DNA of 64,000 nt from Betaproteobacteria bacterium (GCA_031379415.1 JANNFE010000166.1:156-64155), one strand, 5' to 3'; positions 1 through 56,260 are shown, numbered from the stretch's first letter. Numbers and translations are program-made. Notes: generated from the sequence alone by a model not told the origin.

Positions 1-386
1 TCGACGACCTGGCGCTGGCGCAGAGCGACATGCAGAACCTGCTCAACAGCACCGACATCGCGACGCTGTTTCTCGACAATTCGCTCAACGTCAGGCGCTA
101 CACCGAGCAGATCGCGCGCATCATCCATTTGCGCGAAGGCGACGTCGGGCGGCCGCTGACCGACCTGACGAGTACCTTGCTCTACCCCGAGTTGAACGAA
201 GACGCGCGACTCAGTCTGCGCACACTGAGCTTCACGCAAAAGGAGGTCACCACCACCGACGGCCTCTGGTTCCAGGTGCGCATCAAGCCCTATCGCACAC
301 TGGCCGATGTCATTCAGGGCGTGGTCATCACATTTTTCGACATCACGGCCGCCAAACAACTGGAGTCGCGCTTGCGCAACCCCTAG
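1..386 (+). CDS. C-terminal end of CheB/CheR methyltransferase-PAS fusion protein (partial, starts upstream of window)
   Basis: NLLNSTDIATLFLD..L.VRRYT...GDVGRPL.D...W..VRIKPYRT..VIQGVVITFFDIT is the typical C-terminal PAS (PAS_10) segment of CheB/CheR fusions. Confidence 0.8.
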   Translation, partial: DDLALAQSDMQNLLNSTDIATLFLDNSLNVRRYTEQIARIIHLREGDVGRPLTDLTSTLLYPELNEDARLSLRTLSFTQKEVTTTDGLWFQVRIKPYRTLADVIQGVVITFFDITAAKQLESRLRNP

Positions 387-420
387 GCACGCGCCCACTC
401 TCGCCCCGAAAGGTCCTGCC

Positions 421-1002
421 ATGCTGACACCCGCCACCCCCACGCCCCTGCCCTTGCGCGAGCGCGCGGCAGCACGCCTGTCGTCGGGCCGAGTTGAAGG
501 CCACGCTCAGTTGGGCGGCGCCCTGGCCGTGCTGCATCAATTGGCCTCCTCACCCGCGACGGCCGCCGACGCGCTGGCCATGCTGCATGAGTTGCAGGTC
601 CACCAGATCGAAATCGAATTGCAGTCCGAGGAGTTGCGCAGTGCGCGCGCTGAACTGGAAGGGGCGCTGGCGCACCAGCTGGCCCGCATCGACGCGGCCC
701 CGGTGGGCCTGTTCACCGTCGACCCCGGCACCGTGGTGCATGAGGTGAACGCGCCGGGCGCACGGCTGCTGGGCCTTGGCGCAGACGAACTGCTGGGGCT
801 GGCGCTGACGCAGTTCCTGTCGGCCCAGGATGCCGACGCCCTGGCCACGCTGCTGTCGCTGGCCCGCGATCGCAGCAGCCATGAAGGCTGCGCGCTGCGC
901 CTGCAGCCGCCGGTCGGCGCGCCGGTGGCGGTGCGTGCCACGGCCGCGCGCCTGAGCGACGACGGCCAGTGCCAGCTGGCCCTGATGCGCGTAGCCGCGT
1001 AG
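421..1002 (+). CDS. PAS domain protein, usual partner of CheB/CheR fusions
   Basis: LHELQVHQIEIELQSEELR coiled-coil followed by D.APVGLFTVD..TVVHEVN PAS motif; ATG at 421 within ORF 307..1002. Confidence 0.75.
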   Translation: MLTPATPTPLPLRERAAARLSSGRVEGHAQLGGALAVLHQLASSPATAADALAMLHELQVHQIEIELQSEELRSARAELEGALAHQLARIDAAPVGLFTVDPGTVVHEVNAPGARLLGLGADELLGLALTQFLSAQDADALATLLSLARDRSSHEGCALRLQPPVGAPVAVRATAARLSDDGQCQLALMRVAA

Positions 1003-1018
1003 CCGCGTAGTCGGCTGA

Positions 1019-1567
1019 TCAGCTCTTGCCGAACTTCGCCTTGGCCGCTGTCATGCAGCTGGTCTTGGCGTCGCCGGCCATGGCGTCGCACTTCTCGGCC
1101 GCCACCTTGTAGTCGGCATCGACTTTGGTCTGCGTGGCATCGGTGCGTGCTTCGCTGACCTTCTTGACCATCTTGGCGTCGGCGGTGGCCTTGGCCTGCA
1201 CGGCCTTGGCTTCCTTCACGCACACGTCCTTGTCGTTGCCCTTGAGGTCATCGCACTTTTCCTTGGCCACGCCATAGGCCGCATCAGAGCGGACCAGTTG
1301 CAGCTTGGTGCCGTCGGCGGCCTTGCCGGTGTAGCGGAATTCCAGGTCGGCGAAGGCAATCATTTCCTTGCCTTTGGCTTCTGCGATGCAGATGTCCTTG
1401 GCGTTGGCTGTCATCGAAGCGCAGGCCGCCTTGGCTGTCTTGTAGTCGGCGCTGATGCGCGACTTCTCGGCGCTGTAGTCGGCCTTGGGCATGGTGGCGG
1501 CCTGGGCCGAGAAGCCCAGCGTGGCGATGGTGATGGCCAGCAGCGAGGCGTGGAGGCTTTGGGTCAT
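1019..1567 (-). CDS. Exported Lys/Ala-rich protein with three C-x10-C repeats, function unknown
   Basis: Signal peptide MTQSLHASLLAITIATLGFSAQA; repeats YKTAKAAC..KDIC, YGVAKEKC..KDVC, YKVAAEKC..KTSC; AAGGAA SD before ATG at 1567. Confidence 0.8.
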   Translation of the reverse strand: MTQSLHASLLAITIATLGFSAQAATMPKADYSAEKSRISADYKTAKAACASMTANAKDICIAEAKGKEMIAFADLEFRYTGKAADGTKLQLVRSDAAYGVAKEKCDDLKGNDKDVCVKEAKAVQAKATADAKMVKKVSEARTDATQTKVDADYKVAAEKCDAMAGDAKTSCMTAAKAKFGKS

Positions 1568-1629
1568 GGGGTGTTCCTTTCGGGTGGCGAGTAGAGAGCA
1601 ACAGTCTGCGGCGCGGGCTGAGCGCCGTC

Positions 1630-1645
1630 TGTGCGATGACATACA
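1630..1645. promoter_or_regulatory. CRP-like 16-bp box TGTGCG-ATGA-CATACA
   Basis: Matches the TGTGCG-N4-CGCACA pattern also seen at 4861, 5974 and 9676; 63 bp upstream of the 1567 start. Confidence 0.4.
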
Positions 1646-1649
1646 GCCC

Positions 1650-2831
1650 TCAGCGCGTGCCAACCACCTCGATCTCGACGCGACGGTCCGGCTGCAGGCA
1701 GGTGATGAGCTTGGGCGTCGGCTTGTTGCCGGTGCAGGTTCCCGGCTGCGTGGTCGGGCTGGTCTCGCCCTTGCCGACGGCGTTCACCTTGGCGGCCGCA
1801 AAGCCGCCCGCTGACACCAGGTAGTTCTTCACCGCCTCGGCGCGCTGCGCCGAGAGCTTCTGGTTGTAGGCCGGCGTGCCCAGGCGGTCGGTATGCCCTT
1901 CGACGGTGATGACCTCGAATTGCGCGCCCTGCAGTTCGGCGGCAAAACGGTCCAGCGCGGCGCGGCCTTCGGGCTTCACGGCCGACTGGTCGAAGCCGAA
2001 CAGCGACTCGGCCGAGAAGCTGACGCGCCGGCGTTCCGGCACCACGGCCTTGGGCACCGGCGGCGGTGCCACCACCACGGGTGGCGGCGGCGGTGGCGGG
2101 GGCGGCACCACCACCGGCTTGGGCGGCGGCGGGGGCGGGGGCGGCACATAGACCGGCGCCTGTGCGACACGCGGCGCCGGCGTGCGCCCGAACGGGAACA
2201 CCAGGCTGATCGAGTAGACGTCGACATCGCCACGGCGGCCCACGGCGTCGTTCACGCGGTAGCGCTCGGCTTCGCCGCGGATCAGGAAGGACGGGCTGAA
2301 CGCGTACTGCAGCCCGGCGCCGAGCTTGGGGTTGATCTGGCGCTTGCTCGGGTTCGGGTTGAGCACGGCCACCGCGCCGGTGCCGCTGAAGCTGTCGCGT
2401 GTCCGCGCTGCCTGCGCGCCGACGCGGCCGATGAGCGAAAAGCTCTCGCTCAGCGGCAGCGTGCCCACCAGGTCGAGGCTGCCGCCCTGCAGCTTGATCT
2501 GCCCGGCCAGCGTGCCGGCGGGCGTGGTGGTCGCATCGAAGCCGAACTTGCCAAGGTCGAAGGCGCCGAGTTCCAGCGCGAAGTTGCGGTTCAGCTGCAG
2601 GCCGCCGAACAGGCGCCACGCGGCGGCGCGCTGGTCACGCGCGAACGACGTGGTCGTCAGGCCCGCACCCAGCAGATTGGCCGCGATGCGTTCCTGGTCG
2701 ATGCGGGCGCGCGACTCGCCCAGCGACAGGCCGCCGTAGAAGTAGCTGCTTTCCTGGGCCAGCGCGCTGGACGCCAGCGCGGGCGCAAGCCCGGCGAGCA
2801 CCAGCAGGCGCAGCGTGGGTGTGAAGATCAT
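1650..2831 (-). CDS. OmpA family protein: N-terminal outer-membrane beta-barrel, Pro-rich linker, C-terminal peptidoglycan-binding domain
   Basis: Signal peptide MIFTPTLRLLVLAGLAPALASSALAQ; barrel motifs (FGGLQLNRNFALELG, GAGLQYAF); PPPP linker; LFGFDQS, VEGHTDRLG..YNQKLS.QRA, DRRVEIEV. Confidence 0.92.
   Translation of the reverse strand: MIFTPTLRLLVLAGLAPALASSALAQESSYFYGGLSLGESRARIDQERIAANLLGAGLTTTSFARDQRAAAWRLFGGLQLNRNFALELGAFDLGKFGFDATTTPAGTLAGQIKLQGGSLDLVGTLPLSESFSLIGRVGAQAARTRDSFSGTGAVAVLNPNPSKRQINPKLGAGLQYAFSPSFLIRGEAERYRVNDAVGRRGDVDVYSISLVFPFGRTPAPRVAQAPVYVPPPPPPPPKPVVVPPPPPPPPPVVVAPPPVPKAVVPERRRVSFSAESLFGFDQSAVKPEGRAALDRFAAELQGAQFEVITVEGHTDRLGTPAYNQKLSAQRAEAVKNYLVSAGGFAAAKVNAVGKGETSPTTQPGTCTGNKPTPKLITCLQPDRRVEIEVVGTR
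2058..2146. repeat. Low-complexity GGC/GGT repeat encoding the poly-Pro linker of OmpA
   Basis: ggcggcggtggcggggggcggc runs translate to PPPPPPPKPVVVPPPPPPPPPVVVAPPP on the minus strand. Confidence 0.8.
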
Positions 2832-2899
2832 GGTGGGCTTTCTGGCGGCGCGCCGTGGGGCGGCCGCGGGATGGGCTGCGGGGTGGGCTGCGGCGGCCT

Positions 2900-4783
2900 T
2901 CATGGCGCGACGATCGTGGTGTTGACCATCGTCACCGAAGCCGTCAGGCCGATGGCACGGCCGATCAGCGTGGTCTGCACGGTCTGGCCGGGGGTGGAGA
3001 AGGTCACGCCGGCCGGCGCGATGATGGTGCCGACCATGGTGCTGCCGTCTTCGACACGGCCGGCGCTGCCGACCTGCCAATAGACGTTGCGGGCCTGCGC
3101 GCCATTGATCAGCAGCACACGCCGCGGCGTGGCCGGCAGGCCGACGGTCAGTGCCGACGCGCTCTGGAACACCCACACCGCATTGGCGTCGCCTTGCGCG
3201 TCGAGCGTGAGGTTGCCACTGGTGACGGCGAAGGTGCCGCCGGCCGCGGTGTAGACACCTGGTGCCAGCACCAGGCCACCCAACTGGCCGGCGCCAGGGT
3301 CGCTGCCAGGGGGCAAGGCGGCCAGCGCGTTGTAGGCCGTCTGCGCATCGGCCCGTGCCTGCGTGGCCACCGCCAGGCTGGCCGTGGTGCCCGGTGCCGG
3401 CGGGCCGCAGCTGACGTTGCCGTTCACGACGCCGACGTTCAGCGGTGTCTCGGTGTAGACGTTGGCAGCATCGTGCAGGCCGGTCACCAGCGTGCAGGCG
3501 GCGGTGGTACCGATGTTGCCGCCGATCAACGTGTTGATGCCCTGGTTGGTGATGCCCGCGCCGCCACCGAAAGCGCCGAAGGAAGCTGCTGCGCCCAAGG
3601 GCACGGCGCCCACGCAAGCCTGCGTGCCGGTGCTGAAGCCCCATGTGCGCGGTGCGGCCAGCGCATTGCCGGCCAGGTCCCTGACGCCCGTGCTCACGGT
3701 GACGACGAAGCTGCGGCTGGCCATGAAGCCGGCGGCGGCCGTGGGCGTAAAGCTCGCCACCTGAGCCACGGCGTCGTAGCTCACGCTGCCGGCGACGGCC
3801 ACGCCGCCGTCGGTGACCGTGAAGGTCGTGGTCGTGATGGTGGCCGGGTCCATCGGCTCGCTGAAGGTGGCGCTGGCGCCCTTCGTCAGGCACTGGCCGG
3901 TGCTGGCGTCGGCGGGGCTGACGGCCGTCACCGTGGGCGGCGTGGTGTCACCGGCGGCGCCGGTGGTGAAGGTCCACACATGCGCGCCGGCCGCCGGCAG
4001 CAGCGCGGTATTGCCAGCCAGGCCATTGCCTGCCGGGTCGGCCGCAGCGGCCGTGATGGTGGCGCTGTAGACGTTGCCGCTGGCCAGCGTGGCCGGCGTG
4101 GTGGGCGTGAACAGCACCGTGCGCGAGGCCGCGCTGTAACTCACGGTGCCGACCACCGGCGTGCCCAGCGTCGTGTTGGTGACGGTGAAGCTGGTGGCGG
4201 TGAGCGTGGCCGCGTTCATGGCTTCGCTGAAGGTGGCGCTGATACGGGTGTTGGTGGCCACGCCGGCCGCAAGGGCTGCAGGCACGGTGAGCACCACCGT
4301 GGGCCGCGTGGTGTCGGCAGCGCTGGCCAGGCCGGTGACGAAGCTCCAGCTGTAGGCCGCCGCCAGCGCGATGCCGCCGCTGTCGCGCACGGTGGGGCTG
4401 ATGGTGGCCACGCAGTTGGTGGACGGCGGCAGCGCTGCGGCCGGTGTCAGCGTGGCCGTCTGCGTGGCGGCGTCGTAGCTGACGGCAGCCGTCACCGCGC
4501 TGGCGGCCGGGCAGGCCAGGGTGAAGCTGGTGCTGGTGATGGAGCTCGCCAGCATCGGCTTGCTGAAGGTGGCGCGCACGGTGGCGCGGGTGTCCACGCC
4601 GGTAACGGCGGGCGTGGCCGTGGCGGGCGAGGTGACGGTGACCGTGGGCACGCGGCCGACTTCGGGGCCGCCGAGCAAGGGGTCGAGATCGCCACTGCAG
4701 GCAGCGAGGACCAAGCCAGCGCACAGCGCGGCAAGGCGTGACCCGATGCGCAGTGCCGCCGGGTACGAACGGATCGGGTTCAT
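2900..4783 (-). CDS. Lipoprotein with three bacterial Ig-like (Big_5/SbsA-type) domains and a C-terminal DUF3494 ice-binding-like beta-solenoid
   Basis: Lipobox LAAC; three PTV..SP..ATFS.PM...F.L..VSY..FTP..W.F.TG repeats; DUF3494 motifs LG.A.SF..F.G.GITN, A.ADAQTAYN.L, L.PGVY, LTLDAQGDANAVWVFQ, L.NGAQA.NVYWQVG; AAGGAA SD. Confidence 0.88.
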   Translation of the reverse strand: MNPIRSYPAALRIGSRLAALCAGLVLAACSGDLDPLLGGPEVGRVPTVTVTSPATATPAVTGVDTRATVRATFSKPMLASSITSTSFTLACPAASAVTAAVSYDAATQTATLTPAAALPPSTNCVATISPTVRDSGGIALAAAYSWSFVTGLASAADTTRPTVVLTVPAALAAGVATNTRISATFSEAMNAATLTATSFTVTNTTLGTPVVGTVSYSAASRTVLFTPTTPATLASGNVYSATITAAAADPAGNGLAGNTALLPAAGAHVWTFTTGAAGDTTPPTVTAVSPADASTGQCLTKGASATFSEPMDPATITTTTFTVTDGGVAVAGSVSYDAVAQVASFTPTAAAGFMASRSFVVTVSTGVRDLAGNALAAPRTWGFSTGTQACVGAVPLGAAASFGAFGGGAGITNQGINTLIGGNIGTTAACTLVTGLHDAANVYTETPLNVGVVNGNVSCGPPAPGTTASLAVATQARADAQTAYNALAALPPGSDPGAGQLGGLVLAPGVYTAAGGTFAVTSGNLTLDAQGDANAVWVFQSASALTVGLPATPRRVLLINGAQARNVYWQVGSAGRVEDGSTMVGTIIAPAGVTFSTPGQTVQTTLIGRAIGLTASVTMVNTTIVAP

Positions 4784-4860
4784 GAGGTTTTCCTTGTGCC
4801 GCGCGGGGCGGGTCACTGTCCGTTGGAGCAACGGTTGTAGTGAGCGCCGGGCCGACTGTC

Positions 4861-4876
4861 GGTACGCTATCGCACC
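4861..4876. promoter_or_regulatory. CRP-like 16-bp box GGTACG-CTAT-CGCACC
   Basis: Near-palindrome of the same family as 1630, 5974 and 9676; 78 bp upstream of the DUF3494 gene start. Confidence 0.45.
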
Positions 4877-4993
4877 CACCGACACGCAGCCGCCCGTTGG
4901 CAAAGGGCGCTGCAGCCATCAGCACCCACCACCGCGGCGCCGCGGCGCCGCCGTCAGTACCGCCGGGCCCGCCAAAGGGCCCGCGTGGCGCGC

Positions 4994-5746
4994 TCAGCTC
5001 TTCTGGGGGTGCGTGCCGTCCACCACCTGCTGCAGACCCACCGGGTCGGTGATGCGGATCTGCCGGTTGCGCACGAACAGCAGGCCGTCGTGCTGGAACT
5101 TCGAGAAGGTGCGGCTCACCGTCTCCAGCGTCAGCCCCAGGTAGCTGCCGATCTCTTCGCGCGTCATGCGCAACAGCACCGACGACGCGCTAAAGCCACG
5201 CGCCTGCAGCCGGTGTGTCAGGTTCAGCAGGAAGGCGGCCAGCCGCTCTTCGGCGTACATGCTGCCCAGCAGCAGCATGACGCCCTGGTTGCGCACGATC
5301 TCCAGGCTCATGATGCGGTGGAATTGCGCCTGCAGCGAAGGCACCTGGTGGGTCAGGCTCTCCAGCGCTTCGAAGGGGATGACACAGACCTGCGAGTCTT
5401 CCAGCGCGACGGCGTCCACTTCGTGGCGGCGCGTGCCGATGCCGTCCAGGCCGATGAGTTCGCCGCCCATCTGGAAGCCGGTGACCTGGTCGCGGCCGTC
5501 CTTGGAGGCCACGCAGGTCTTGAAGAAGCCGGTCCACACGGCGTAGACACAATCGAAACGGTCACCGGCGCGATAGAGGGTCTCGCCGCGCTGCACGCGG
5601 CGCCGCGTGGCCACCATGCTCTTGTCGATGAACTCCAGCTCCATCTTGCTGAGGCCGACCGGCAGGCAGATCTCGCGCAGGTTGCAGGAGGAACACACCA
5701 CCTCGCACGAAGACAGGTGCAGGGGCTTGAAGACGGCGTTGTCCAT
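4994..5746 (-). CDS. fnr: O2-sensing FNR regulator with [4Fe-4S] cysteines
   Basis: N-terminal C-x3-C-x2-C-x5-C (CEVVCSSCNLREIC) as in E. coli FNR, internal QVCVIPF Cys, recognition helix LTLETVSR. Confidence 0.92.
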   Translation of the reverse strand: MDNAVFKPLHLSSCEVVCSSCNLREICLPVGLSKMELEFIDKSMVATRRRVQRGETLYRAGDRFDCVYAVWTGFFKTCVASKDGRDQVTGFQMGGELIGLDGIGTRRHEVDAVALEDSQVCVIPFEALESLTHQVPSLQAQFHRIMSLEIVRNQGVMLLLGSMYAEERLAAFLLNLTHRLQARGFSASSVLLRMTREEIGSYLGLTLETVSRTFSKFQHDGLLFVRNRQIRITDPVGLQQVVDGTHPQKS

Positions 5747-5849
5747 GGTGGGGCTGGCTCCGGGTGCGCCAGTGATGGTGGCGGTGCGCGAACAGGCGGA
5801 ACAACGACAGCGCTTCATCATAAGCCGCCGTTGCAGGCAGCCCGGCGCG

Positions 5850-5863
5850 CTGATCCAGATCAA
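5850..5863. promoter_or_regulatory. FNR box CTGAT-CCAG-ATCAA
   Basis: One mismatch to TTGAT-N4-ATCAA in the divergent fnr/dld intergenic region. Confidence 0.7.
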
Positions 5864-5973
5864 TCCGCGGCTGACCTGCGTGCATAGAGTGCTTCATCGG
5901 GTTGTGTTGTCGGCCGCTGTCGACTGTCTGCCCGGAAGCTGACAACACGCCCGGCCCGCGCGCGCACTGTCTC

Positions 5974-5989
5974 TGTTCGGCAACGCACG
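5974..5989. promoter_or_regulatory. CRP-like 16-bp box TGTTCG-GCAA-CGCACG
   Basis: Same motif family; 42 bp upstream of the dld ATG. Confidence 0.5.
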
Positions 5990-6031
5990 AAACCGGCAAC
6001 AGTGGCCCTGCACGGCCCCACAAGGAGACAC

Positions 6032-8859
<2,828 letters not shown>

Positions 8860-8872
<13 letters not shown>

Positions 8873-9618
8873 TCGGCGGCCAGCGCCAGGGCCCGGCTGC
8901 AAGCCTGCAGGGCGCGCAGGTCGGGAATGAGGATGACCCGTCGGCCGCGTTCACCAAAGCCGATGACGCCGCAGCGCACCAGCGCGGCCAGCGCCCGGCT
9001 CACCGATTCAAGCCGCATGCCCAGATGGTTGCCGATGTCGGCGCGTGTCAGCGGCAGGCGCACGCGGTCGGTTCGCTGGCCGCTGCCGGCCAGGGCCTCG
9101 GCCCAGCCGCACAGGAATTCGGCCACGCGTGCCGGCGCCGGCAAGGTGCAGCGCGACAGCATGGCGTCACGCCCGACGCGGATGGCGCGGCTCATCTCGT
9201 GCTGCACGCTGGCCGTGAGCGCGGCGCTGGACGTGCAGGCCGCCAGCAGGTCGTCGTGGCGCAGCGCCCAGACCTCGCCGACGTCCAGCGCCACGGCCTC
9301 GCAGCCGTAGCGGCCGGTGGCGATGCCGTCGAAGCCCAGCCAGTCACCGCGCACCTGCACACCCACCAGCTGCTGGCGGCCGTCGGCCGTGGTGTTGACG
9401 AGCTTGAAGGCGCCGGCATGGATGATGTAGAGCTGCACGAAGGGCAAACCGGCGCCGCACAGCACGTCGCCGGCGTGCACACGCTGCACGCGCACACGCA
9501 GCGCGCCGGCCAGCAGCCGCAGCATGTCACCGATGCGGTCGACGCCGAAGGCCGGCACGAAAGGCTCGCAAGGCGCCGCCGCGACGAGATGCAGTGCGAC
9601 AGCATTCGTTCGTGGCAT
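8860..9618 (-). CDS. Crp/Fnr family regulator lacking the N-terminal Fe-S cysteine cluster (FixK/DNR-like)
   Basis: cNMP-binding fold (G.FKLV..DGRQQLVG...GDWLGFDGI), HTH LTRADIGNHLGMRLESVSR; only one N-terminal Cys; alternative start at 9636. Confidence 0.85.
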
Positions 9619-9675
9619 GGATGTCCTTGGCTGCACGGGCGAAGCCGCATCTTGGGCGACACGCCGCAGCGAATC

Positions 9676-12066: not shown

Positions 12067-12080
12067 TTGATGCATGTCAA
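12067..12080. promoter_or_regulatory. FNR box TTGAT-GCAT-GTCAA
   Basis: One mismatch to consensus, upstream of nrfA and overlapping the ccmF stop codon. Confidence 0.7.
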
Positions 12081-19489: not shown

Positions 19490-19503
19490 CTGATGTGAAT
19501 CAA
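19490..19503. promoter_or_regulatory. FNR box CTGAT-GTGA-ATCAA
   Basis: One mismatch; in an AT-rich promoter patch upstream of mtrC. Confidence 0.7.
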
Positions 19504-49413: not shown

Positions 49414-50937
49414 CTAGCGCCAGCGCGCGGCGATGGCGGGCAGGTCCGGCGCCTGGTCGGTGTCGATGCGCATCGCGGCTTCGTCGGGCGCCAGGGGCTC
49501 GTCGATGCCGAGCTGGAAGTCCAGCACCGACAGATCGGCTTCCGAGGCGTCGTCGCCGCGCTGCTGGCGCGCCTGGATGCGCTGGCGCAGGGTGGCTATG
49601 GCGGCCTGGCAATCGAGGATGAGAAAGGGCACGCCAGCCTCTAGTGCCAGGCCGCGCATCTGCGCGCGTTCGCTGCGCCGCAGGCAGGCCGCGTCGATGA
49701 TCACCGGGTGCCCGGCGGCCAGCAGCCCGCGCGCCAGTTCGGCCAGACGGCCGTAGGTGCGCGTGTTGGCGTCCTGTCCGTAGATGCCACCCGCCACGTG
49801 CGCGCCCGAAGCCTGCAGGGCCGACAAGCCGTGCAGCCGCTTGCGCTCGACATCCGAGCGCAGCCGCACCGCACCGGTGAGTTCCAGCAAGCCCTGGGTG
49901 ACGAAGGTCTTGCCCGAACCGGACAAGCCATGCGTCACCAGCAGGCGCGGTGGCGCGGGCTGGAAGGCGACCCGGCGCGCCAGCGCAAGGTAGTGCTCGG
50001 CTGCAGACCCCGCAGCCGCACCCTGCGCAGCCTCGATGCGCGCCACCATCGCCCGCACCAGCGCGCGGTGCACGAGGTAGGGCCGCAACACCGGCACGCC
50101 GGCATGGTCGCCACTGGCGTCGAGCCAGGCGTTGACGAAGCGCCAGGCCAGCGCCGGCCGGCCATGAGCCAGCAGGTCCATGGTCATGAAGGCGATGTCG
50201 CTCTGCATGTCGATCCAGCGCAGCGCGGGGTCGAATTCCAGGCAGTCGAAGGCCGTGACACCATCGTCCAGCACCACGGCATTGCGCAGATGCAGGTCAC
50301 CATGGCATTCGCGCACGGCACCGTCCTGCTGGCGCCGCTGCCACAGCGGGCGCAGCGCAGGCACCACGCCGTCGAACCCGCGCTGCAGGTCGGCCACATC
50401 CGCACCGCGCTGCTGCAGGCGGCGCAGCACGGCGCGGGTCTCTTCGGCCACCTCGTCGGCACTGCCCCAGCGGCTGCCTGGCGGCGCTACGGGCGCGTCG
50501 CGGTGCACGGCCGCCACGCGTGCGGCCAGGGCGTCCAGATGCGCCGGCTGCAGCGTGCCGTCGGTCAGTTTCTCGCTCAGCAGCGCGCGGGGCGGGAAGC
50601 GGCGCATCTTCAGCGCAAACTCGATGGCCGGGCCTTCGCCGCCGATTCGTGGCGCGTCCACGCTGCCGGTGATGGCCACGACCTCGAGGTAGATCGAAGG
50701 CGCCCAGGGCCGGTTGAGTCTGAGTTCCTCGTCGCAGAAATGGCGCCGCGCGGCCAGCTTGGAGAAGTCCAGGAAGCCCAGATTGACCGGCTTCTTGATC
50801 TTCCAGGCGGTGTCGCCCACCAGCAGCACCCAGGAGATGTGGGTCTCGATGCGCTGCACGCTGGCGCCGCCCCACTGCGCCTGCAGCGCATCCACCAGCG
50901 CGCCACCCGGCTCTTCGATCAGCATGCGCTCGAGCAT
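49414..50937 (-). CDS. Bifunctional aminoglycoside-phosphotransferase-like / AAA_33 kinase protein
   Basis: ETHISWV.L.G..A.KIKKPV..GFLDFS, RECHGDLHL.N, FDC.EF...LRWID..D.AF..MDL, Walker A GLSGSGKT, LRSD.ERKRL; start 50937 or 50925. Confidence 0.88.
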   Translation of the reverse strand: MLERMLIEEPGGALVDALQAQWGGASVQRIETHISWVLLVGDTAWKIKKPVNLGFLDFSKLAARRHFCDEELRLNRPWAPSIYLEVVAITGSVDAPRIGGEGPAIEFALKMRRFPPRALLSEKLTDGTLQPAHLDALAARVAAVHRDAPVAPPGSRWGSADEVAEETRAVLRRLQQRGADVADLQRGFDGVVPALRPLWQRRQQDGAVRECHGDLHLRNAVVLDDGVTAFDCLEFDPALRWIDMQSDIAFMTMDLLAHGRPALAWRFVNAWLDASGDHAGVPVLRPYLVHRALVRAMVARIEAAQGAAAGSAAEHYLALARRVAFQPAPPRLLVTHGLSGSGKTFVTQGLLELTGAVRLRSDVERKRLHGLSALQASGAHVAGGIYGQDANTRTYGRLAELARGLLAAGHPVIIDAACLRRSERAQMRGLALEAGVPFLILDCQAAIATLRQRIQARQQRGDDASEADLSVLDFQLGIDEPLAPDEAAMRIDTDQAPDLPAIAARWR

Positions 50938-50971
50938 GGCACGGCGCCCGAACGCACCGTTGAGCACAGGT

Positions 50972-50985
50972 TTCATCCAGATCAA
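50972..50985. promoter_or_regulatory. FNR box TTCAT-CCAG-ATCAA
   Basis: One mismatch; in the divergent kinase/korC intergenic region. Confidence 0.6.
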
Positions 50986-51094
50986 GGCCAGCCGCAATTG
51001 AGGGTCAGTGCGCAGCCCGTGGCGCCTGCCCTGTGCTTAGACTCGCGCGACACCCGCACGCCAGCCCAGGACGAATGCGGGGCAGGAGACGACA

Positions 51095-52936
51095 TTGCAG
51101 CTGACCAACACAGCGGGCGCGGCCTACTTTCACCAGGTCGTCGATTGCCAATGGGCCTGCCCGGCCCACACCCCGGTGCCGGAGTACATCCGGCTCATCG
51201 GCCAGGGGCGTTACGACGACGCCTACATGATCAACTGGGTGTCCAACGTCTTTCCCGGCGTGTTGGGCCGAACGTGTGACCGGCCCTGTGAACCGGCCTG
51301 CCGGCGCGTGCGTGTCGAAGAGAACAACGGCGCGACGGCGGAACCGGTCGCCATCTGCCGCCTGAAGCGCGTGGCCGCCGACCACAAGAGCGACGTGCGG
51401 GCACGCATGCCCGAGCTCATGCCGGCCAATGGCAGGCGCGTGGCCTGCGTCGGCGCCGGGCCGTCTTCGCTGACGGTGGCGCGCGACCTCGCGCCGCTGG
51501 GCTACGAGGTCACGGTGTTCGACGGCGAAGCCCAGGCCGGCGGCTTCATCCGCACGCAGATCCCGCGCTTCCGGCTGCCCGAATCGGTCATCGACGAGGA
51601 AACCGGCTACATCCTCGACCTGGGTGTGAAGTTCCGCGGCGGCGAACGTGTCGACTCGATGAAGGCACTGCTGGCCCAGGGCTACGATGCCATCTTCGTC
51701 GGCTGCGGTGCGCCGCGCGGGCGCGACCTGCAGGTCCCCGGCCGCCAGGAGGCGGCGGCCAACATCCACATCGGCATCGACTGGCTGGCCTCGGTGTCCT
51801 TCGGCCACATCACGAGCGTCGGCCGGCGCGTCATCGTGCTGGGTGGTGGCAACACGGCAATGGACTGCTGCCGCTCTGCGCGCCGGCTGGGCGGCCAGCA
51901 GGTGTCGGTGATCGTGCGCAGCGGCTTCGACGAGATGAAGGCCTCGCCCTGGGAGAAGGAAGACGCGCTGCACGAAGGCATCCCCATCCTCAACTTCCAC
52001 GTGCCCAGGCGCTTCGAGCACGAAGGCGGCAGGCTCACCGGCATGAGCTTCGAGATCGTGCGCGCCGAGGTCGACACCCAAGGCCTGCGCCAGCTGGTGC
52101 CCACGGGCGAACCCGATGTGCTCGTGCCCTGCGACACCGTGCTGGTGGCCGTGGGCCAGGAGAACGCCTTCCCCTGGATCGAGGCCGACTGCGGCATCGC
52201 CTTCGACCAGTCGGGCCTGCCAGTGCTGGATGCCGGCACGCACCAGGCGACGCTGCCGCAGGTCTTCTTCGGCGGTGATGCGGCCTTCGGCCCGAAGAAC
52301 ATCATCACCGCGGTGGCCCACGGCCACGAGGCCGCGGTGTCCATCGACCGCCTGCTGAATCGCGAGGACGTGAAGCGCCGTCCGGCGCCGTTTGCCAACC
52401 TGATGTCGCAGAAGATGGGCATCCACGAGTGGAGCTACGACAACGACGTGTCGAACGACGTGCGCTCCAAGGTGCCCTGGGCGGCGGCCGAGAAGGCGCT
52501 GGCCAGCATCCGCGTCGAGGTGGAACTCGGCTTCGACGCCGCGACCGCCTTCAAGGAAGCGCAGCGCTGCCTGAACTGCGACGTGCAGACGGTGTTCAAC
52601 CGCGACACCTGCATCGAGTGCGACGCCTGCGTCGACATCTGCCCCATGGACTGCATCACCTTCACCGAAGGCGGCGAAGAGGCCGAGTTGCGCACGCGCC
52701 TGAAGGCCCCGGCGCGCCACGCCTACCAGGCCCTGTATGTCAGCACCGACCTGAAGAGCGGCCGCGTCATGGTCAAGGACGAGGATGTCTGCCTGCACTG
52801 CGGCCTGTGCGCCGAGCGCTGCCCCACCGGCGCCTGGGACATGCAGAAGTTCCTGCTGCACACCACGCAGGCCGGGCCGCTCTGCCGCGACAAGGCAGCC
52901 GGGCACGGCAGCGCACTCAGCAGGGAGCTGGCATGA
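51095..52936 (+). CDS. GltD/NfnB-like flavo-Fe-S NADP(H) oxidoreductase with C-terminal 2x[4Fe-4S] ferredoxin (KorC-like)
   Basis: TTG start with AGGAG SD; CQ.ACPAH, GRTC.RPCE.AC.R, VG.GP..L..A, GGGNTAMD..R.ARRLG, FFGGD..FGP..I..A, CIECDACVDICP, CLHCGLCAERCP. Confidence 0.85.
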   Translation: MQLTNTAGAAYFHQVVDCQWACPAHTPVPEYIRLIGQGRYDDAYMINWVSNVFPGVLGRTCDRPCEPACRRVRVEENNGATAEPVAICRLKRVAADHKSDVRARMPELMPANGRRVACVGAGPSSLTVARDLAPLGYEVTVFDGEAQAGGFIRTQIPRFRLPESVIDEETGYILDLGVKFRGGERVDSMKALLAQGYDAIFVGCGAPRGRDLQVPGRQEAAANIHIGIDWLASVSFGHITSVGRRVIVLGGGNTAMDCCRSARRLGGQQVSVIVRSGFDEMKASPWEKEDALHEGIPILNFHVPRRFEHEGGRLTGMSFEIVRAEVDTQGLRQLVPTGEPDVLVPCDTVLVAVGQENAFPWIEADCGIAFDQSGLPVLDAGTHQATLPQVFFGGDAAFGPKNIITAVAHGHEAAVSIDRLLNREDVKRRPAPFANLMSQKMGIHEWSYDNDVSNDVRSKVPWAAAEKALASIRVEVELGFDAATAFKEAQRCLNCDVQTVFNRDTCIECDACVDICPMDCITFTEGGEEAELRTRLKAPARHAYQALYVSTDLKSGRVMVKDEDVCLHCGLCAERCPTGAWDMQKFLLHTTQAGPLCRDKAAGHGSALSRELA

Positions 52937-54756
52937 AACGCATCGAGGGCGTCAACGACTTCGTCATCAAGTTCGCCAACGTCAACGGCTCGGGTTCGGC
53001 CTCGGCCAACGAACTCTTCGCCAAGGCCATCCTGCGCATGGGCGTGCCGGTGAGCCCGCGCAACATCTTTCCCAGCAACATCCAGGGCATGCCCACCTGG
53101 TACGAAGCGCGGGTGTGCGAGCAGGGCTACCACGGCCGCCGCGGCGGCGTGGACATGATGGTGGCCATGAACCCGCAGACCTGGGCGGCCGACCTGGCCG
53201 AGATCGAGCCCGGCGGCTACCTCTTCTACGACAGCACGCGGCCGATGCCGGCATCGGCCTTCAGGCCCGATGTCAACGTCATCGGCGTGCCGCTGACAGC
53301 GATCACCAACGCCGCCTACACCGACGCGCGCCAGCGCCAGCTGTTCAAGAACATCATCTATGTCGGCGCGCTGTCGGTGCTGCTGGATGTCGACGCCGAG
53401 GTCTTCGAGAAGCTCTTCGCCGAGCAGTACAAGGGCAAGGAAAGGCTGCTCGACAGCAACCTCCAGGCCTTGCATCTGGGCCGCGACCACGTGAAGCAGC
53501 ACCTGCAGGCGCCGCTGGGCATCCGCGTGCGGCGCGCCGACAAGGTGGGTGAGCAGATCTTCACCGACGGCAACAGCGCCATCGCGCTGGGTTGCCTCTA
53601 CGGCGGCGCCACGGTGGCGGCGTGGTATCCGATCACGCCCTCGTCGTCGGTGCCCGAGGCCTTCCAGAAGTACTGCGAGAAGTTCCGCGTCGACCCGGCG
53701 ACGGGACAGAACCGCTACGCCATCGTGCAGGCCGAGGACGAGCTGGCCAGCATCGGCATGGTGGTGGGCGCGGGCTGGAACGGCGCGCGCGCCTTCACGG
53801 CCACCTCGGGCCCCGGCATCAGCCTGATGCAGGAATTCATCGGCCTGGCCTACTTTGCGGAAATCCCGGTGACCATCGTCGACGTGCAGCGCGGCGGGCC
53901 TTCCACCGGCATGCCCACGCGCACGCAGCAGAGCGACCTGACGATCTGCGCCTACGCCTCGCACGGCGACACCAAGCATGTGCTGCTGCTGCCGCAGGAC
54001 CCGCATGAATGCTTCGAGTTCGCCGCCGCCTCGCTGGACCTCGCCGACCGCCTGCAGACGCCGGTGTTCCTGATGACCGACCTGGACATCGGCATGAACC
54101 AGCGCCTGTGCAAGCCCTTCGTGTGGGACGACGCGCGCGGCTTCGACCGCGGCAAGGTCATGAGCGCCGAGGAACTGGAGGCGGGCAAGGACTTCGGCCG
54201 CTACAAGGACGTGGACGGCGACGGCATCCCCTGGCGCACCCTGCCCGGCACGCACCCCACCAAGGGCAGCTTCTTCACGCGCGGCACCACGCGCGACCCC
54301 TATGCGCGCTACAGCGAGCGCGGGCCCGACTACATCTACAACATGGAAAGGCTGCTGAAGAAGTTCAAGACCGCGGCCACGCTGGTGCCGCAGCCACTGC
54401 AGCGCCGGGCCGCCGAGGCCACGCGCTTTGGCGTCATCTACTTCGGCAGCACCACGCCGGCCATGCGCGAGGCGCTCGACGTGCTGGAAGCTGAAGACAT
54501 CCACGTCGACGCGCTGCGCCTGCGCGCCTTCCCCTTCCCCGACAGCGTGGCCGCCTTCATCAACGCGCACGAGCATGTCTTCGTGGTGGAGCAGAACCGC
54601 GACGGCCAGATGCAGCAGATGCTGGTCAACGAGCTGCAGATCGCCCCGGCGCGCCTGCAGCGCGTGCTGCACTACGACGGCACGCCGATCACGGCACGCT
54701 TCATCGCCGGCGCCATCCGCAAGAGCCTGGCTAACCGCGTGAAGGAAACGGCATGA
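52933..54756 (+). CDS. korA: 2-oxoacid:acceptor oxidoreductase alpha subunit (gamma-alpha fusion)
   Basis: N.NGSGS.SAN, FPSNIQG.PT, GN.A.A.G...GG.T..AWYPITPS, QAEDE.ASI....GA.WNG.R.FT.TSGPG.SLM.E, .VQR.GPSTG.PTR.QQ.D. Confidence 0.9.
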   Translation: MKRIEGVNDFVIKFANVNGSGSASANELFAKAILRMGVPVSPRNIFPSNIQGMPTWYEARVCEQGYHGRRGGVDMMVAMNPQTWAADLAEIEPGGYLFYDSTRPMPASAFRPDVNVIGVPLTAITNAAYTDARQRQLFKNIIYVGALSVLLDVDAEVFEKLFAEQYKGKERLLDSNLQALHLGRDHVKQHLQAPLGIRVRRADKVGEQIFTDGNSAIALGCLYGGATVAAWYPITPSSSVPEAFQKYCEKFRVDPATGQNRYAIVQAEDELASIGMVVGAGWNGARAFTATSGPGISLMQEFIGLAYFAEIPVTIVDVQRGGPSTGMPTRTQQSDLTICAYASHGDTKHVLLLPQDPHECFEFAAASLDLADRLQTPVFLMTDLDIGMNQRLCKPFVWDDARGFDRGKVMSAEELEAGKDFGRYKDVDGDGIPWRTLPGTHPTKGSFFTRGTTRDPYARYSERGPDYIYNMERLLKKFKTAATLVPQPLQRRAAEATRFGVIYFGSTTPAMREALDVLEAEDIHVDALRLRAFPFPDSVAAFINAHEHVFVVEQNRDGQMQQMLVNELQIAPARLQRVLHYDGTPITARFIAGAIRKSLANRVKETA

Positions 54757-55808
54757 CCTACATCACCAAGCCGCGGCTGCACCACCCCACGCTGCAGACC
54801 AACAAGGTCGGCTACACGCGGCGCGACTACGAAGGCCGCATCAGCACGCTGTGCGCCGGCTGCGGCCACGACAGCATCTCGGCGGCCATCATCCAGGCGG
54901 CCTGGGAACTGGACATCGAACCGCACCGCGTGGCCAAGCTCTCGGGCATCGGCTGCAGCTCCAAGACGCCCGACTACTTCCTGGGTGCCAGCCACGGCTT
55001 CAACACCGTGCACGGCCGCATGCCGAGCGTGCTGACCGGCGCCAACCTGGCCAACCGCTCGCTCATCTACCTGGGTGTCAGCGGCGACGGCGACAGCGCC
55101 AGCATCGGCCTGGGCCAGTTCGCCAACGCCATGCGGCGCGGCGTGCGCATGGCCTACATCGTCGAGAACAACGGCGTCTACGGCCTCACCAAGGGCCAGT
55201 TCAGCGCCACCGCCGACCGCGGCAGCAAGAGCAAGAAGGGCGTGGTCAACAGCGACAGCCCGGTCGACCTGGTGGGCATCGCTTTGCAGCTCGGTGCCAC
55301 GTTTGTTGCGCGCAGCTTCTCGGGCGACAAGGCGCAGCTGGTGCCGCTGATCAAGGGCGCGCTGGCCCTTGGCGGCGCCGCCTTCATCGACGTCATCAGC
55401 CCCTGCGTGACCTTCAACAATCACGGCGGCAGCACCAAGAGCTATGACTACATCCGCCAGCACAACGAAGCGGTGAGCCGCGTCGACTTCATGACGCCGG
55501 GCGAAGAGATCACCGCCGACTACGCCGCGGGCGAAGTCATCGACGTGCCGCAGCACGGTGGTGAGTTCCTGCGCCTGCGCAAGCTGCACGCCGACTACGA
55601 CCCCACCGACCGCTACGCCGCGCTGGCCTACATGAACGAACATGCCAAACATGGCGAAGTGGTCACCGGGCTGCTGTATCTTGACCCGCTCGCCACCGAC
55701 CTGCACACCGCGATGAACACCTGCGCCGCGCCGCTGGCCAGCCTGGCCGAACGGCAGTTGTGCCCGGGCAGCAGCGCGCTGCAGAAGATCAACGCCTCGC
55801 TGCGCTGA
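54753..55808 (+). CDS. korB: 2-oxoacid:ferredoxin oxidoreductase beta subunit
   Basis: LCAGCGHD, SGIGCSS, HGR, TPP motif GDGDSASIG, NNG.YGLTKGQ.S.T, SPCVTFN. Confidence 0.92.
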   Translation: MTYITKPRLHHPTLQTNKVGYTRRDYEGRISTLCAGCGHDSISAAIIQAAWELDIEPHRVAKLSGIGCSSKTPDYFLGASHGFNTVHGRMPSVLTGANLANRSLIYLGVSGDGDSASIGLGQFANAMRRGVRMAYIVENNGVYGLTKGQFSATADRGSKSKKGVVNSDSPVDLVGIALQLGATFVARSFSGDKAQLVPLIKGALALGGAAFIDVISPCVTFNNHGGSTKSYDYIRQHNEAVSRVDFMTPGEEITADYAAGEVIDVPQHGGEFLRLRKLHADYDPTDRYAALAYMNEHAKHGEVVTGLLYLDPLATDLHTAMNTCAAPLASLAERQLCPGSSALQKINASLR

Positions 55809-55819
55809 AGGAGTTAGCC

Positions 55820-56256
55820 ATGCCCGAACGTTCGGTCTTCCAGGCCATGTCGCGCCGCCACGTCATCAGCCTGGGCCCGCAAGCCACGGTGCACGAGGCG
55901 GCCTGCGTCATGACGCGCGCCAACTGCGGCAGCGTGCTCATCATCGACACCACCAGCACGCTGCTCGGCATCCTGACCGAGCGCGATCTCATGACGCGCG
56001 TGCTGGCCAAGGCACTGGATCCGGCCACCACGCTGGTGACCCGGGTGATGACGCCGCACCCGCACTGCATCGGCCCCGAGTTCAAGGTGGCCGACGCCGT
56101 GCTCATCATGATCGAGCGCGGCTTCCGACACCTGCCGGTGGTGGCCGAAGGCGGCCGCATCCTGGGCGTGTTCTCGGCGCGCGACGCGCTGCCGCGCGAA
56201 TTGAACACCGCCGTCACGCTGGCCGAGTTCAACGAGCAGGTGAACGACGCGCTGGG

Positions 56257-56260
<4 letters not shown>
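55820..56260 (+). CDS. Tandem CBS domain protein
   Basis: V.EAA..M......S.LI, LLGILTERDL..RV.A, V..VMT..P, RHLPVV....G.LGV.S.RD; AAGGAG SD. Confidence 0.9.

What the first reader, a model, noticed from the sequence alone, without database searches (positions are those of the whole stretch)
51095..55808. Three-subunit 2-oxoacid:NADP+ oxidoreductase-like operon with a built-in ferredoxin
Seen: a GltD/NfnB-like flavoprotein with the NADP-type GGGNTAMD..R motif and a C-terminal 2x[4Fe-4S] domain is coupled (ATGA overlaps) to OFOR alpha and beta; an FNR box lies upstream; no free ferredoxin gene is in the window. Known: Azoarcus evansii has a three-subunit 2-oxoglutarate:NADP+ oxidoreductase (KorABC), and NfnB-type flavoproteins can bifurcate electrons. 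Inference: this replaces the NAD-dependent dehydrogenase under anoxia and supplies NADPH to the Glu183Ala-type complex I. Substrate (2-oxoglutarate vs pyruvate) is not determined from sequence.
Basis: partly seen in the sequence, partly recalled or inferred. Interest (0 to 1): 0.6.

Follow-up and report, generated by a model that had tools for sequence, protein, structure and literature searches.

The report
Known NADP-linked 2-oxoglutarate oxidoreductase operon
Three coupled genes encode a common, already described type of low-oxygen enzyme that most likely oxidises 2-oxoglutarate and passes the electrons to NADP+, and the proposed special partnership with the neighbouring NADPH-type complex I is not supported by genome comparisons.

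Summary
Observation confirmed. A GltD-like Fe-S flavoprotein with a C-terminal 2[4Fe-4S] domain (51095-52936) overlaps OFOR alpha, which overlaps beta (ATGA junctions). An FNR box lies at -71.5 from an inferred start, a spacing kept in relatives. The operon is common (98/300 family genomes; order kept in 19/20 loci; 67-71% identical to the Aromatoleum EbN1 copy) and matches the design of the Azoarcus evansii 2-oxoglutarate:NADP+ oxidoreductase. The scan has found it before on other DNA.

Corrections:
(1) Substrate can be narrowed: beta Lys71 is the 2-oxoglutarate-enabling residue, so a pyruvate-only enzyme is unlikely.
(2) Bifurcation is unlikely: the flavoprotein has the Lys of non-bifurcating StnC where NfnB has Glu, and no NfnA was found.
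(3) A dedicated link to GEAS complex I is not supported. 97/98 operon-bearing family genomes lack it, the within-genus association is not significant (7/11 vs 31/61, p=0.52), and the two were within 10 kb in 0/80 loci. A raw enrichment (60/80) exists but is confounded.

What does sit next to GEAS nuo, in 25/59 loci, is a pyruvate-type oxidoreductase operon (13 of the porCAB type carry a different GltD-like flavoprotein; this genome has that operon on C7), often with malic enzyme.

The parts
50972..50985 (.). FNR/FixK-type box TTCATCCAGATCAA, centred at -71.5 from the inferred transcription start (class I activator spacing)
   Evidence: best box at -70.5 to -72.5 in this locus and 7 of 11 relatives (0-3 mismatches; perfect consensus in L005)
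51038..51043 (+). Conserved -10-like hexamer TAGACT (start site inferred near 51050)
   Evidence: Present upstream of the gene in all 12 loci examined, 47-99 nt before the start codon region
51095..52936 (+). Fe-S flavoprotein subunit (KorC-type; called KGOR-alpha in PMC10134865), 613 aa, 66.7 kDa. GltD/StnC-like FAD-NADP(H) module with two predicted clusters (C18, C22, C61, C65, C69, K91 plus C492/C495 from the C-terminal RCLNC motif) and a 2[4Fe-4S] ferredoxin domain (C506/509/512/516, C566/569/572/576)
   Evidence: cluster assignment inferred from alignment
52933..54756 (+). 2-oxoacid oxidoreductase alpha subunit (gamma-alpha fusion), 607 aa; YPITP 232-236, Arg320
   Evidence: TIGR03710 above cut-off; best solved relative is PDB 6n2n
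54753..55808 (+). 2-oxoacid oxidoreductase beta subunit, 351 aa; TPP motif GDGD, [4Fe-4S] ligands C34/C37/C68/C218, specificity residues Lys71 and Leu145
55820..56260 (+). CBS-domain protein 11 nt after korB, probably co-transcribed; optional, not a core part
   Evidence: adjacent in only 2 of 20 other loci

Best explanation
The operon encodes a three-subunit 2-oxoglutarate:NADP+ oxidoreductase (possibly also active on other small 2-oxoacids) of the Azoarcus evansii KGOR type, switched on by an FNR-family activator when oxygen is low. Inferred path: TPP in alpha/beta decarboxylates the 2-oxoacid and forms acyl-CoA. Electrons pass one at a time from the beta [4Fe-4S] cluster to the flavoprotein's own 2[4Fe-4S] domain, then through its two GltD-type clusters to FAD, which gives a hydride to NADP+. 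No free ferredoxin and no bifurcation are needed. It keeps the TCA cycle running when the lipoate/NAD complex is down or inhibited by NADH, and feeds the general NADPH pool. The GEAS complex I is at most one optional consumer of that pool. Shown here: gene content, order, motifs, promoter geometry, distribution. Modelled: docking of the ferredoxin domain. Inferred: substrate, coenzyme, direction, regulation, physiological role.
For: Order flavoprotein-alpha-beta is kept in 19 of 20 loci at 50-88% identity across many families. The same three genes are in Aromatoleum aromaticum EbN1 at 67/68/71%. PMC10134865 groups the A. evansii KGOR flavoprotein with NsoC-type proteins; the best PDB matches here are that kind of module (9bov, 9n5u, 8oh5). 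NADP pocket: Arg275 invariant, no acidic residue at that strand end, whereas the genome's own GltD has QFELMP. Substrate: beta Lys71 aligns with S. tokodaii Lys49, whose K49I change abolishes 2-oxoglutarate activity (PMC5020499), and with Arg63 of PDB 6n2n; it is invariant in 20 sequences. Complex model: ipSAE 0.64 vs best control 0.35 (mark reached by 58 of 80 solved and 2 of 110 mismatched pairs; runs agree in at least 87% of contacts; partner pLDDT at least 74). The C512/C576 cluster region sits on beta residues 34-44 beside the cluster ligands, and the beta N-terminus 2-14 wraps the domain. This pass may come from likeness to solved PFOR/ferredoxin-domain structures. FNR box spacing is conserved. 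sucA and aceE are present in the genome.
Against: No activity was measured. The A. evansii paper (PMC225024) and sequences could not be retrieved, so orthology to the purified enzyme rests on the EbN1 copy and on a secondary paper. Lys at this position also occurs in the S. tokodaii enzymes, which use both pyruvate and 2-oxoglutarate. The second Arg of the usual YRR motif is Ser276 here. Three or four of 11 relatives have no good FNR box at that spacing. One genome (L121) has the flavoprotein without alpha/beta beside it.
Confidence: 0.72

Rival explanations
1. One reading: the enzyme is the dedicated NADPH source for the GEAS (Glu183Ala-type) second complex I, forming an anoxic 2-oxoacid to NADPH to quinone respiratory module.
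For: The flavoprotein gene was found in 60 of 80 GEAS-NuoF genomes against 98/300 in the family and 31/61 in non-GEAS members of the genus (p=0.004 for the latter, kin not independent). The two lie within 21 kb here, in a region with several FNR boxes.
Against: 97 of 98 operon-bearing family genomes lack this NuoF. Within the genus 7/11 vs 31/61, p=0.52. The operon was not found in G399, G420, G422 and G436 (94-100% complete), which carry GEAS NuoF. It lies within 10 kb of the GEAS nuoF in 0 of 80 loci. Of 60 genomes with both, 4 share a contig, all at least 70 kb apart; in single-contig G498 the two genes are 900 kb apart.
Confidence: 0.12
2. Broad-specificity or pyruvate-preferring 2-oxoacid:NADP+ oxidoreductase that stands in for pyruvate dehydrogenase.
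For: S. tokodaii enzymes with the same Lys/Leu pair use both substrates, and StOFOR2 prefers pyruvate (PMC5020499). The Bradyrhizobium alpha/beta pair Blr6743/6744 is annotated for either substrate (PMC8585493).
Against: A strict PFOR has Ile/Asn at these two positions (PMC5020499). The genome has a separate PorCAB-type operon with its own flavoprotein beside lactate-use genes on C7. Closest solved alpha subunit is 6n2n, from memory a 2-oxoglutarate enzyme.
Confidence: 0.12
3. An electron-bifurcating or reductive (CO2-fixing, electron-sink) enzyme in this purple phototroph, using the ferredoxin domain to exchange electrons with free ferredoxin.
For: The genome has photosynthetic reaction-centre genes and free ferredoxins. 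The Arg equivalent to NfnB R201 is kept (R158 or Lys). OFOR chemistry is reversible.
Against: Lys91 aligns with StnC K170, not the NfnB Glu; StnC does not bifurcate although it also keeps that Arg (PMC10482914). No NfnA-type [2Fe-2S] domain (PF10418) was found in the 97%-complete genome. From general knowledge NADPH (about -320 mV) cannot drive carboxylation of succinyl-CoA (about -500 mV) alone. No nifD or benzoyl-CoA reductase was found as a low-potential sink.
Confidence: 0.04

Closest known systems
2-oxoglutarate:NADP+ oxidoreductase (KGOR, KorABC) of Azoarcus (Aromatoleum) evansii, Ebenau-Jehle, Boll and Fuchs 2003, J Bacteriol 185:6119 (PMC225024; citation confirmed in reference lists, text not readable here)
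   Same: Three subunits: an NsoC/GltD-type Fe-S flavoprotein plus OFOR alpha and beta. Predicted masses 66.7/67.1/37.5 kDa fit the roughly 63/62/37 kDa I recall for the purified enzyme (from memory, unverified).
   Different: There it serves benzoyl-CoA reduction; no benzoyl-CoA reductase was found in this genome. Direct sequence comparison could not be made.
Aromatoleum aromaticum EbN1 plasmid 2 genes EBN1_RS21825/21830/21835 (NC_006824.1)
   Same: Same order and overlaps, 67/68/71% identity, all key residues shared.
   Different: Plasmid-borne, behind acyl-CoA dehydrogenase genes, preceded by a CBS gene that did not match the window's CBS protein; annotated only generically.
StnC N-terminal module (Sporomusa ovata, PDB 8oh5; PMC10482914) and NfnA of BfuABC-type NfnABC (9bov, 9n5u)
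   Same: FAD/NADPH module with Lys at the proximal cluster and a C-terminal RCLxC motif; best sequence and fold matches.
   Different: Those are fused to NuoG/FdhF-like domains and work with a HydBC-like bifurcating module; here the module ends in a small ferredoxin domain and works with an OFOR.
NfnB/NfnL of NfnAB (PDB 5jca, 4ylf)
   Same: Same fold and GGGNTAMD motif.
   Different: Glu ligand replaced by Lys, N-terminal CxxC missing, extra ferredoxin domain, no NfnA partner found.
Two-subunit 2-oxoacid:ferredoxin oxidoreductases (S. tokodaii 5b46/5b48; PDB 6n2n)
   Same: Alpha/beta architecture, YPITP, catalytic Arg, basic residue at beta 71.
   Different: They use free ferredoxin and have no flavoprotein subunit.

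Membership tests
KGOR-type 2-oxoglutarate:NADP+ oxidoreductase (KorABC) | Co-encoded GltD-like Fe-S flavoprotein, OFOR alpha and OFOR beta | tested here: met
   order kept in 19/20 loci and in EbN1
KGOR-type 2-oxoglutarate:NADP+ oxidoreductase (KorABC) | NADP-type nucleotide pocket in the flavoprotein | tested here: met
   GGGNTAMD plus invariant Arg275 and no acidic residue; aligns with NADPH-binding StnC and NfnL. Sequence level only.
KGOR-type 2-oxoglutarate:NADP+ oxidoreductase (KorABC) | 2-oxoglutarate as preferred substrate | tested here: inconclusive
   Beta Lys71/Leu145 allow 2-oxoglutarate and argue against a pyruvate-only enzyme but not against a broad one
KGOR-type 2-oxoglutarate:NADP+ oxidoreductase (KorABC) | Orthology to the purified A. 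evansii proteins | not testable with these tools
   Paper and sequences not retrievable; the same-genus EbN1 copy is 67-71% identical
KGOR-type 2-oxoglutarate:NADP+ oxidoreductase (KorABC) | Stable three-subunit complex with measured NADP+ reduction | not testable with these tools
   Only a supportive model (ipSAE 0.64 vs 0.35 control)
OFOR alpha/beta (TIGR03710 / TIGR02177) | Family score, YPITP, Arg, TPP motif, four Cys ligands | tested here: met
   Alpha 585 bits vs cut-off 483. Beta 189 bits is below the TIGR02177 cut-off of 262, but all motifs are present
Electron-bifurcating NfnAB | Glu ligand at the FAD-proximal [4Fe-4S] cluster | tested here: not met
   Lys91, invariant in 21 sequences, aligns with StnC K170
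Electron-bifurcating NfnAB | NfnA partner (FAD, [2Fe-2S], NAD site) | tested here: not met
   PF10418 not found in the 97%-complete genome; control genomes ring
Dedicated partner of GEAS-type complex I | Co-occurrence and linkage with GEAS NuoF beyond lineage background | tested here: not met
   Within-genus p=0.52; 1/98 in the family; 0/80 linked loci. Raw cross-lineage enrichment 60/80 is confounded; a small genus sample limits power.
FNR/FixK regulon | TTGAT-N4-ATCAA box at an activating position | tested here: met
   -71.5 from the inferred start, same spacing in 7 of 11 relatives; regulation itself not tested

The most novel reading that the evidence does not exclude
In these betaproteobacteria a second complex I with an NADPH-type pocket is fed by NADP-linked 2-oxoacid oxidoreductases, giving an anoxic NADPH-based respiratory route. 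This KorABC-type enzyme and the pyruvate-type PorCAB-flavoprotein (plus malic enzyme) would be interchangeable donors. Support: at least one of the two flavoprotein clades in 73/80 GEAS genomes and in 10/11 vs 33/61 within the genus (p=0.04, post hoc, kin not independent); a pyruvate-type OFOR directly upstream of the GEAS nuo operon in 25/59 loci.
Probability: 0.25. Interest if true: 0.6.

Novelty: new member of a known kind. Interest (0 to 1): 0.22.

Why it matters
The enzyme type was purified in 2003 and this operon is one of thousands of copies (8000 homologues scored, the best 120 at least 80% identical; one third of family genomes sampled), so the locus itself is ordinary. It is still poorly annotated ('glutamate synthase', 'formate dehydrogenase beta'), and it means many facultative proteobacteria may make NADPH at the 2-oxoglutarate step under low oxygen, which metabolic models omit. 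The useful new lead is a redirection: if the GEAS complex I really oxidises NADPH, its most likely dedicated donors are the pyruvate-type oxidoreductase and malic enzyme encoded right beside it in many genomes, not this operon.

Tried and rejected
Reading the A. evansii paper by DOI, PMC id and PMID failed, as did the Chen et al. 2019 OGOR structure paper. Literature searches for korABC/KGOR/EbN1 KorA2 gave nothing usable.

First AlphaFold run with a near-identical alignment was useless (pLDDT 43). The second (pLDDT 67) resolved the FAD/NADP core but not the cluster regions, so cluster ligation is from alignment only.

Rejected:
- Bifurcation (Lys ligand, no NfnA).
- Role in aromatic ring reduction or nitrogen fixation (bcrA, nifD not found).
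- 'No free ferredoxin' as evidence (three exist elsewhere in the genome).
- The raw 60/80 vs 98/300 test (p=8e-12) as proof of coupling, because the GEAS genomes come from lineages with higher background, are related, and were chosen by similarity.

Two genus members first counted as alternative-NuoF (G395, G445) have GEES and were removed from the strict test. The CBS gene is not a core part. That the FNR box serves the divergent kinase-like gene instead cannot be excluded, but the box is kept in relatives that lack that neighbour.

Full report
OBSERVATION. The three ORFs are as described: 51095-52936 (613 aa, TTG start), 52933-54756 (607 aa), 54753-55808 (351 aa), joined by ATGA overlaps. 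The first has Fer4_20, Pyr_redox_2 and Fer4_7 domains. The second passes TIGR03710 (2-oxoacid:acceptor oxidoreductase alpha). The third is a TPP/[4Fe-4S] beta subunit. The FNR-like box is at 50972-50985; the window has four one-mismatch sites against 0.15 expected. A TAGACT -10-like hexamer at 51038 is conserved in all 12 loci compared. It puts the box at -71.5 from the inferred start, and 7 of 11 relatives have their best box at -70.5 to -72.5, one a perfect consensus. From general knowledge this is a class I FNR/CRP activation position. No free ferredoxin gene was found in the window, but three small ferredoxins are on other contigs.

HOST. The genome (5.16 Mb, 69% GC, 97% complete) belongs to the genus that contains MAGs titled Rubrivivax (G406 = L015). 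It has reaction-centre genes, sucA, aceE and pntB; nifD, benzoyl-CoA reductase A and an NfnA-type domain were not found.

DISTRIBUTION. The flavoprotein is very common: 8000 homologues were scored and the best 120 are at least 80% identical. It is in 98/300 family genomes, 38/72 genus genomes and 11/200 class genomes. In 19 of 20 diverse loci it is followed by alpha and beta in the same order. Aromatoleum aromaticum EbN1 plasmid 2 has the same three genes at 67/68/71% identity. The purified precedent is the 2-oxoglutarate:NADP+ oxidoreductase of Azoarcus evansii (Ebenau-Jehle et al. 2003). I could confirm its citation but not read it. PMC10134865 places its flavoprotein subunit with NsoC homologues, apart from GltD and NfnB.

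FLAVOPROTEIN. Best matches by sequence and fold are the N-terminal NADPH modules of 9bov, 9n5u and StnC (8oh5), ahead of NfnL. Lys91 aligns with StnC K170. PMC10482914 shows that this Lys replaces the NfnB Glu at the FAD-proximal cluster and that StnC does not bifurcate. Lys91 is invariant in 21 orthologues, and no NfnA partner was found, so bifurcation is unlikely. The NADP pocket is supported by invariant Arg275 after GGGNTAMD with no acidic residue at that strand end; the genome's own GltD has QFELMP there. The N-terminal CxxC of GltD is missing, and an invariant RCLNC at 491-495 probably supplies those ligands (inferred).

SUBSTRATE. Beta Lys71 and Leu145 align with Lys49 and Leu123 of S. 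tokodaii OFOR1; K49I abolishes 2-oxoglutarate activity, and strict PFOR has Ile/Asn there (PMC5020499). Lys71 is invariant and matches Arg63 of 6n2n, whose alpha chain is the best solved relative. The enzyme is therefore 2-oxoglutarate-competent; broad specificity is not excluded.

BUILT-IN FERREDOXIN. A model of alpha 1-420, beta and flavoprotein 430-600 scored 0.64 against a best control of 0.35 (mark reached by 58/80 solved and 2/110 mismatched pairs; at least 87% contact agreement; partner pLDDT at least 74). It places the C512/C576 cluster region on beta 34-44, at the beta cluster ligands, with the conserved beta N-terminus wrapping the domain. This fits a fixed electron wire, but may reflect likeness to solved PFOR structures and does not show binding.

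LINK TO GEAS COMPLEX I. The window NuoF has YVCGEASAL; the canonical NuoF on C214 has YICGEETAL. Tests:
(a) Family: 1 of 300 genomes has this NuoF, so 97 of 98 operon carriers lack it.
(b) The 80 closest GEAS-NuoF genomes (all GEAS): 60 have the flavoprotein. This is above the family and genus backgrounds, but these genomes are related and come from other lineages.
(c) Within the genus: 7/11 vs 31/61, p=0.52. The operon was not found in four GEAS genomes of 94-100% completeness.
(d) Linkage: within 10 kb in 0/80 loci; on one contig in 4/60 genomes, all at least 70 kb apart.
The 21 kb distance here is best read as shared residence in a low-oxygen gene region. A dedicated partnership is not supported, though a shared-ecology enrichment is real.

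WHAT IS LINKED INSTEAD. In 25 of 59 GEAS loci with at least 5 kb of upstream sequence, a pyruvate-type OFOR lies directly before nuoA. Fifteen are porCAB-type (13 with a different GltD-like ferredoxin flavoprotein, about 30% identical to this one) and ten are NifJ-type; 17 have malic enzyme upstream. This genome has the porCAB-flavoprotein operon on C7 beside lactate-use genes. Three of the four genus GEAS genomes without the window's operon carry it on the nuo contig. Either clade is present in 73/80 GEAS genomes (looser threshold) and in 10/11 vs 33/61 in the genus (p=0.04, post hoc).

MECHANISM AND VERDICT. Most likely (0.72): an FNR-induced, non-bifurcating 2-oxoglutarate:NADP+ oxidoreductase, with electrons going TPP, beta cluster, ferredoxin domain, two GltD-type clusters, FAD, NADP+. 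It backs up the NAD-dependent SucAB complex under low oxygen and feeds the general NADPH pool. It is a new member of a known, widespread kind, and earlier scan notes report the same operon type in other genomes. Interest 0.22. The residual novel reading, an NADPH-based respiratory route with interchangeable OFOR donors, has probability about 0.25 and belongs mainly to the complex I and the pyruvate-type operon.

Noticed in passing
G000 contig C7, L109:2193-6694 (- strand): Second OFOR operon, porC-porA-porB plus a 544-aa PRK12771-like GltD/ferredoxin flavoprotein, downstream of an L-lactate permease-like gene and lutABC-like genes: candidate lactate to pyruvate to acetyl-CoA + NADPH route.
   Followed up: partly
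L027, L036, L041, L051, L053, L057, L058, L064, L067, L069, L075, L077, L093: about 200-6800, upstream of nuoA: porCAB + GltD-like flavoprotein + malic enzyme sit directly in front of the GEAS-type nuo operon; NifJ-type PFOR takes that place in ten other loci. Strongest genomic hint so far for an NADPH-fed complex I.
   Followed up: partly
L130 (G395) and L131 (G445): Another NuoF type, 57-58% identical to the window's, with YVCGEESS rather than GEAS.
   Followed up: no
L121 (G498:C1:1889185-1891017): Orphan copy of the flavoprotein with no alpha/beta neighbours, between a CoA-transferase-like gene and chemotaxis genes, in a single-contig genome.
   Followed up: no
window 49414-50997 (- strand): Divergent gene with a C-terminal AAA_33 domain and a phosphotransferase-like N-terminal part; the longest ORF call overlaps the FNR box, so the true start is probably near 50928-50940.
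   Followed up: no
window 5850-5863, 12067-12080, 19490-19503: Three more FNR-like boxes, in front of an Fnr-like gene / FAD-linked oxidase, a cytochrome c gene and the Mtr cluster; two Fnr/Crp-family genes at 4994-5863 and 8860-9636.
   Followed up: no
L095 (NC_006824.1:4389-9594): The EbN1 copy is on a conjugative plasmid next to trb genes, a possible route of horizontal spread; three Variovorax secondary replicons also carry the flavoprotein gene.
   Followed up: no
L126:5361-6003 (G185): About 640 bp separate the flavoprotein from alpha in this genome, breaking the usual coupling.
   Followed up: no
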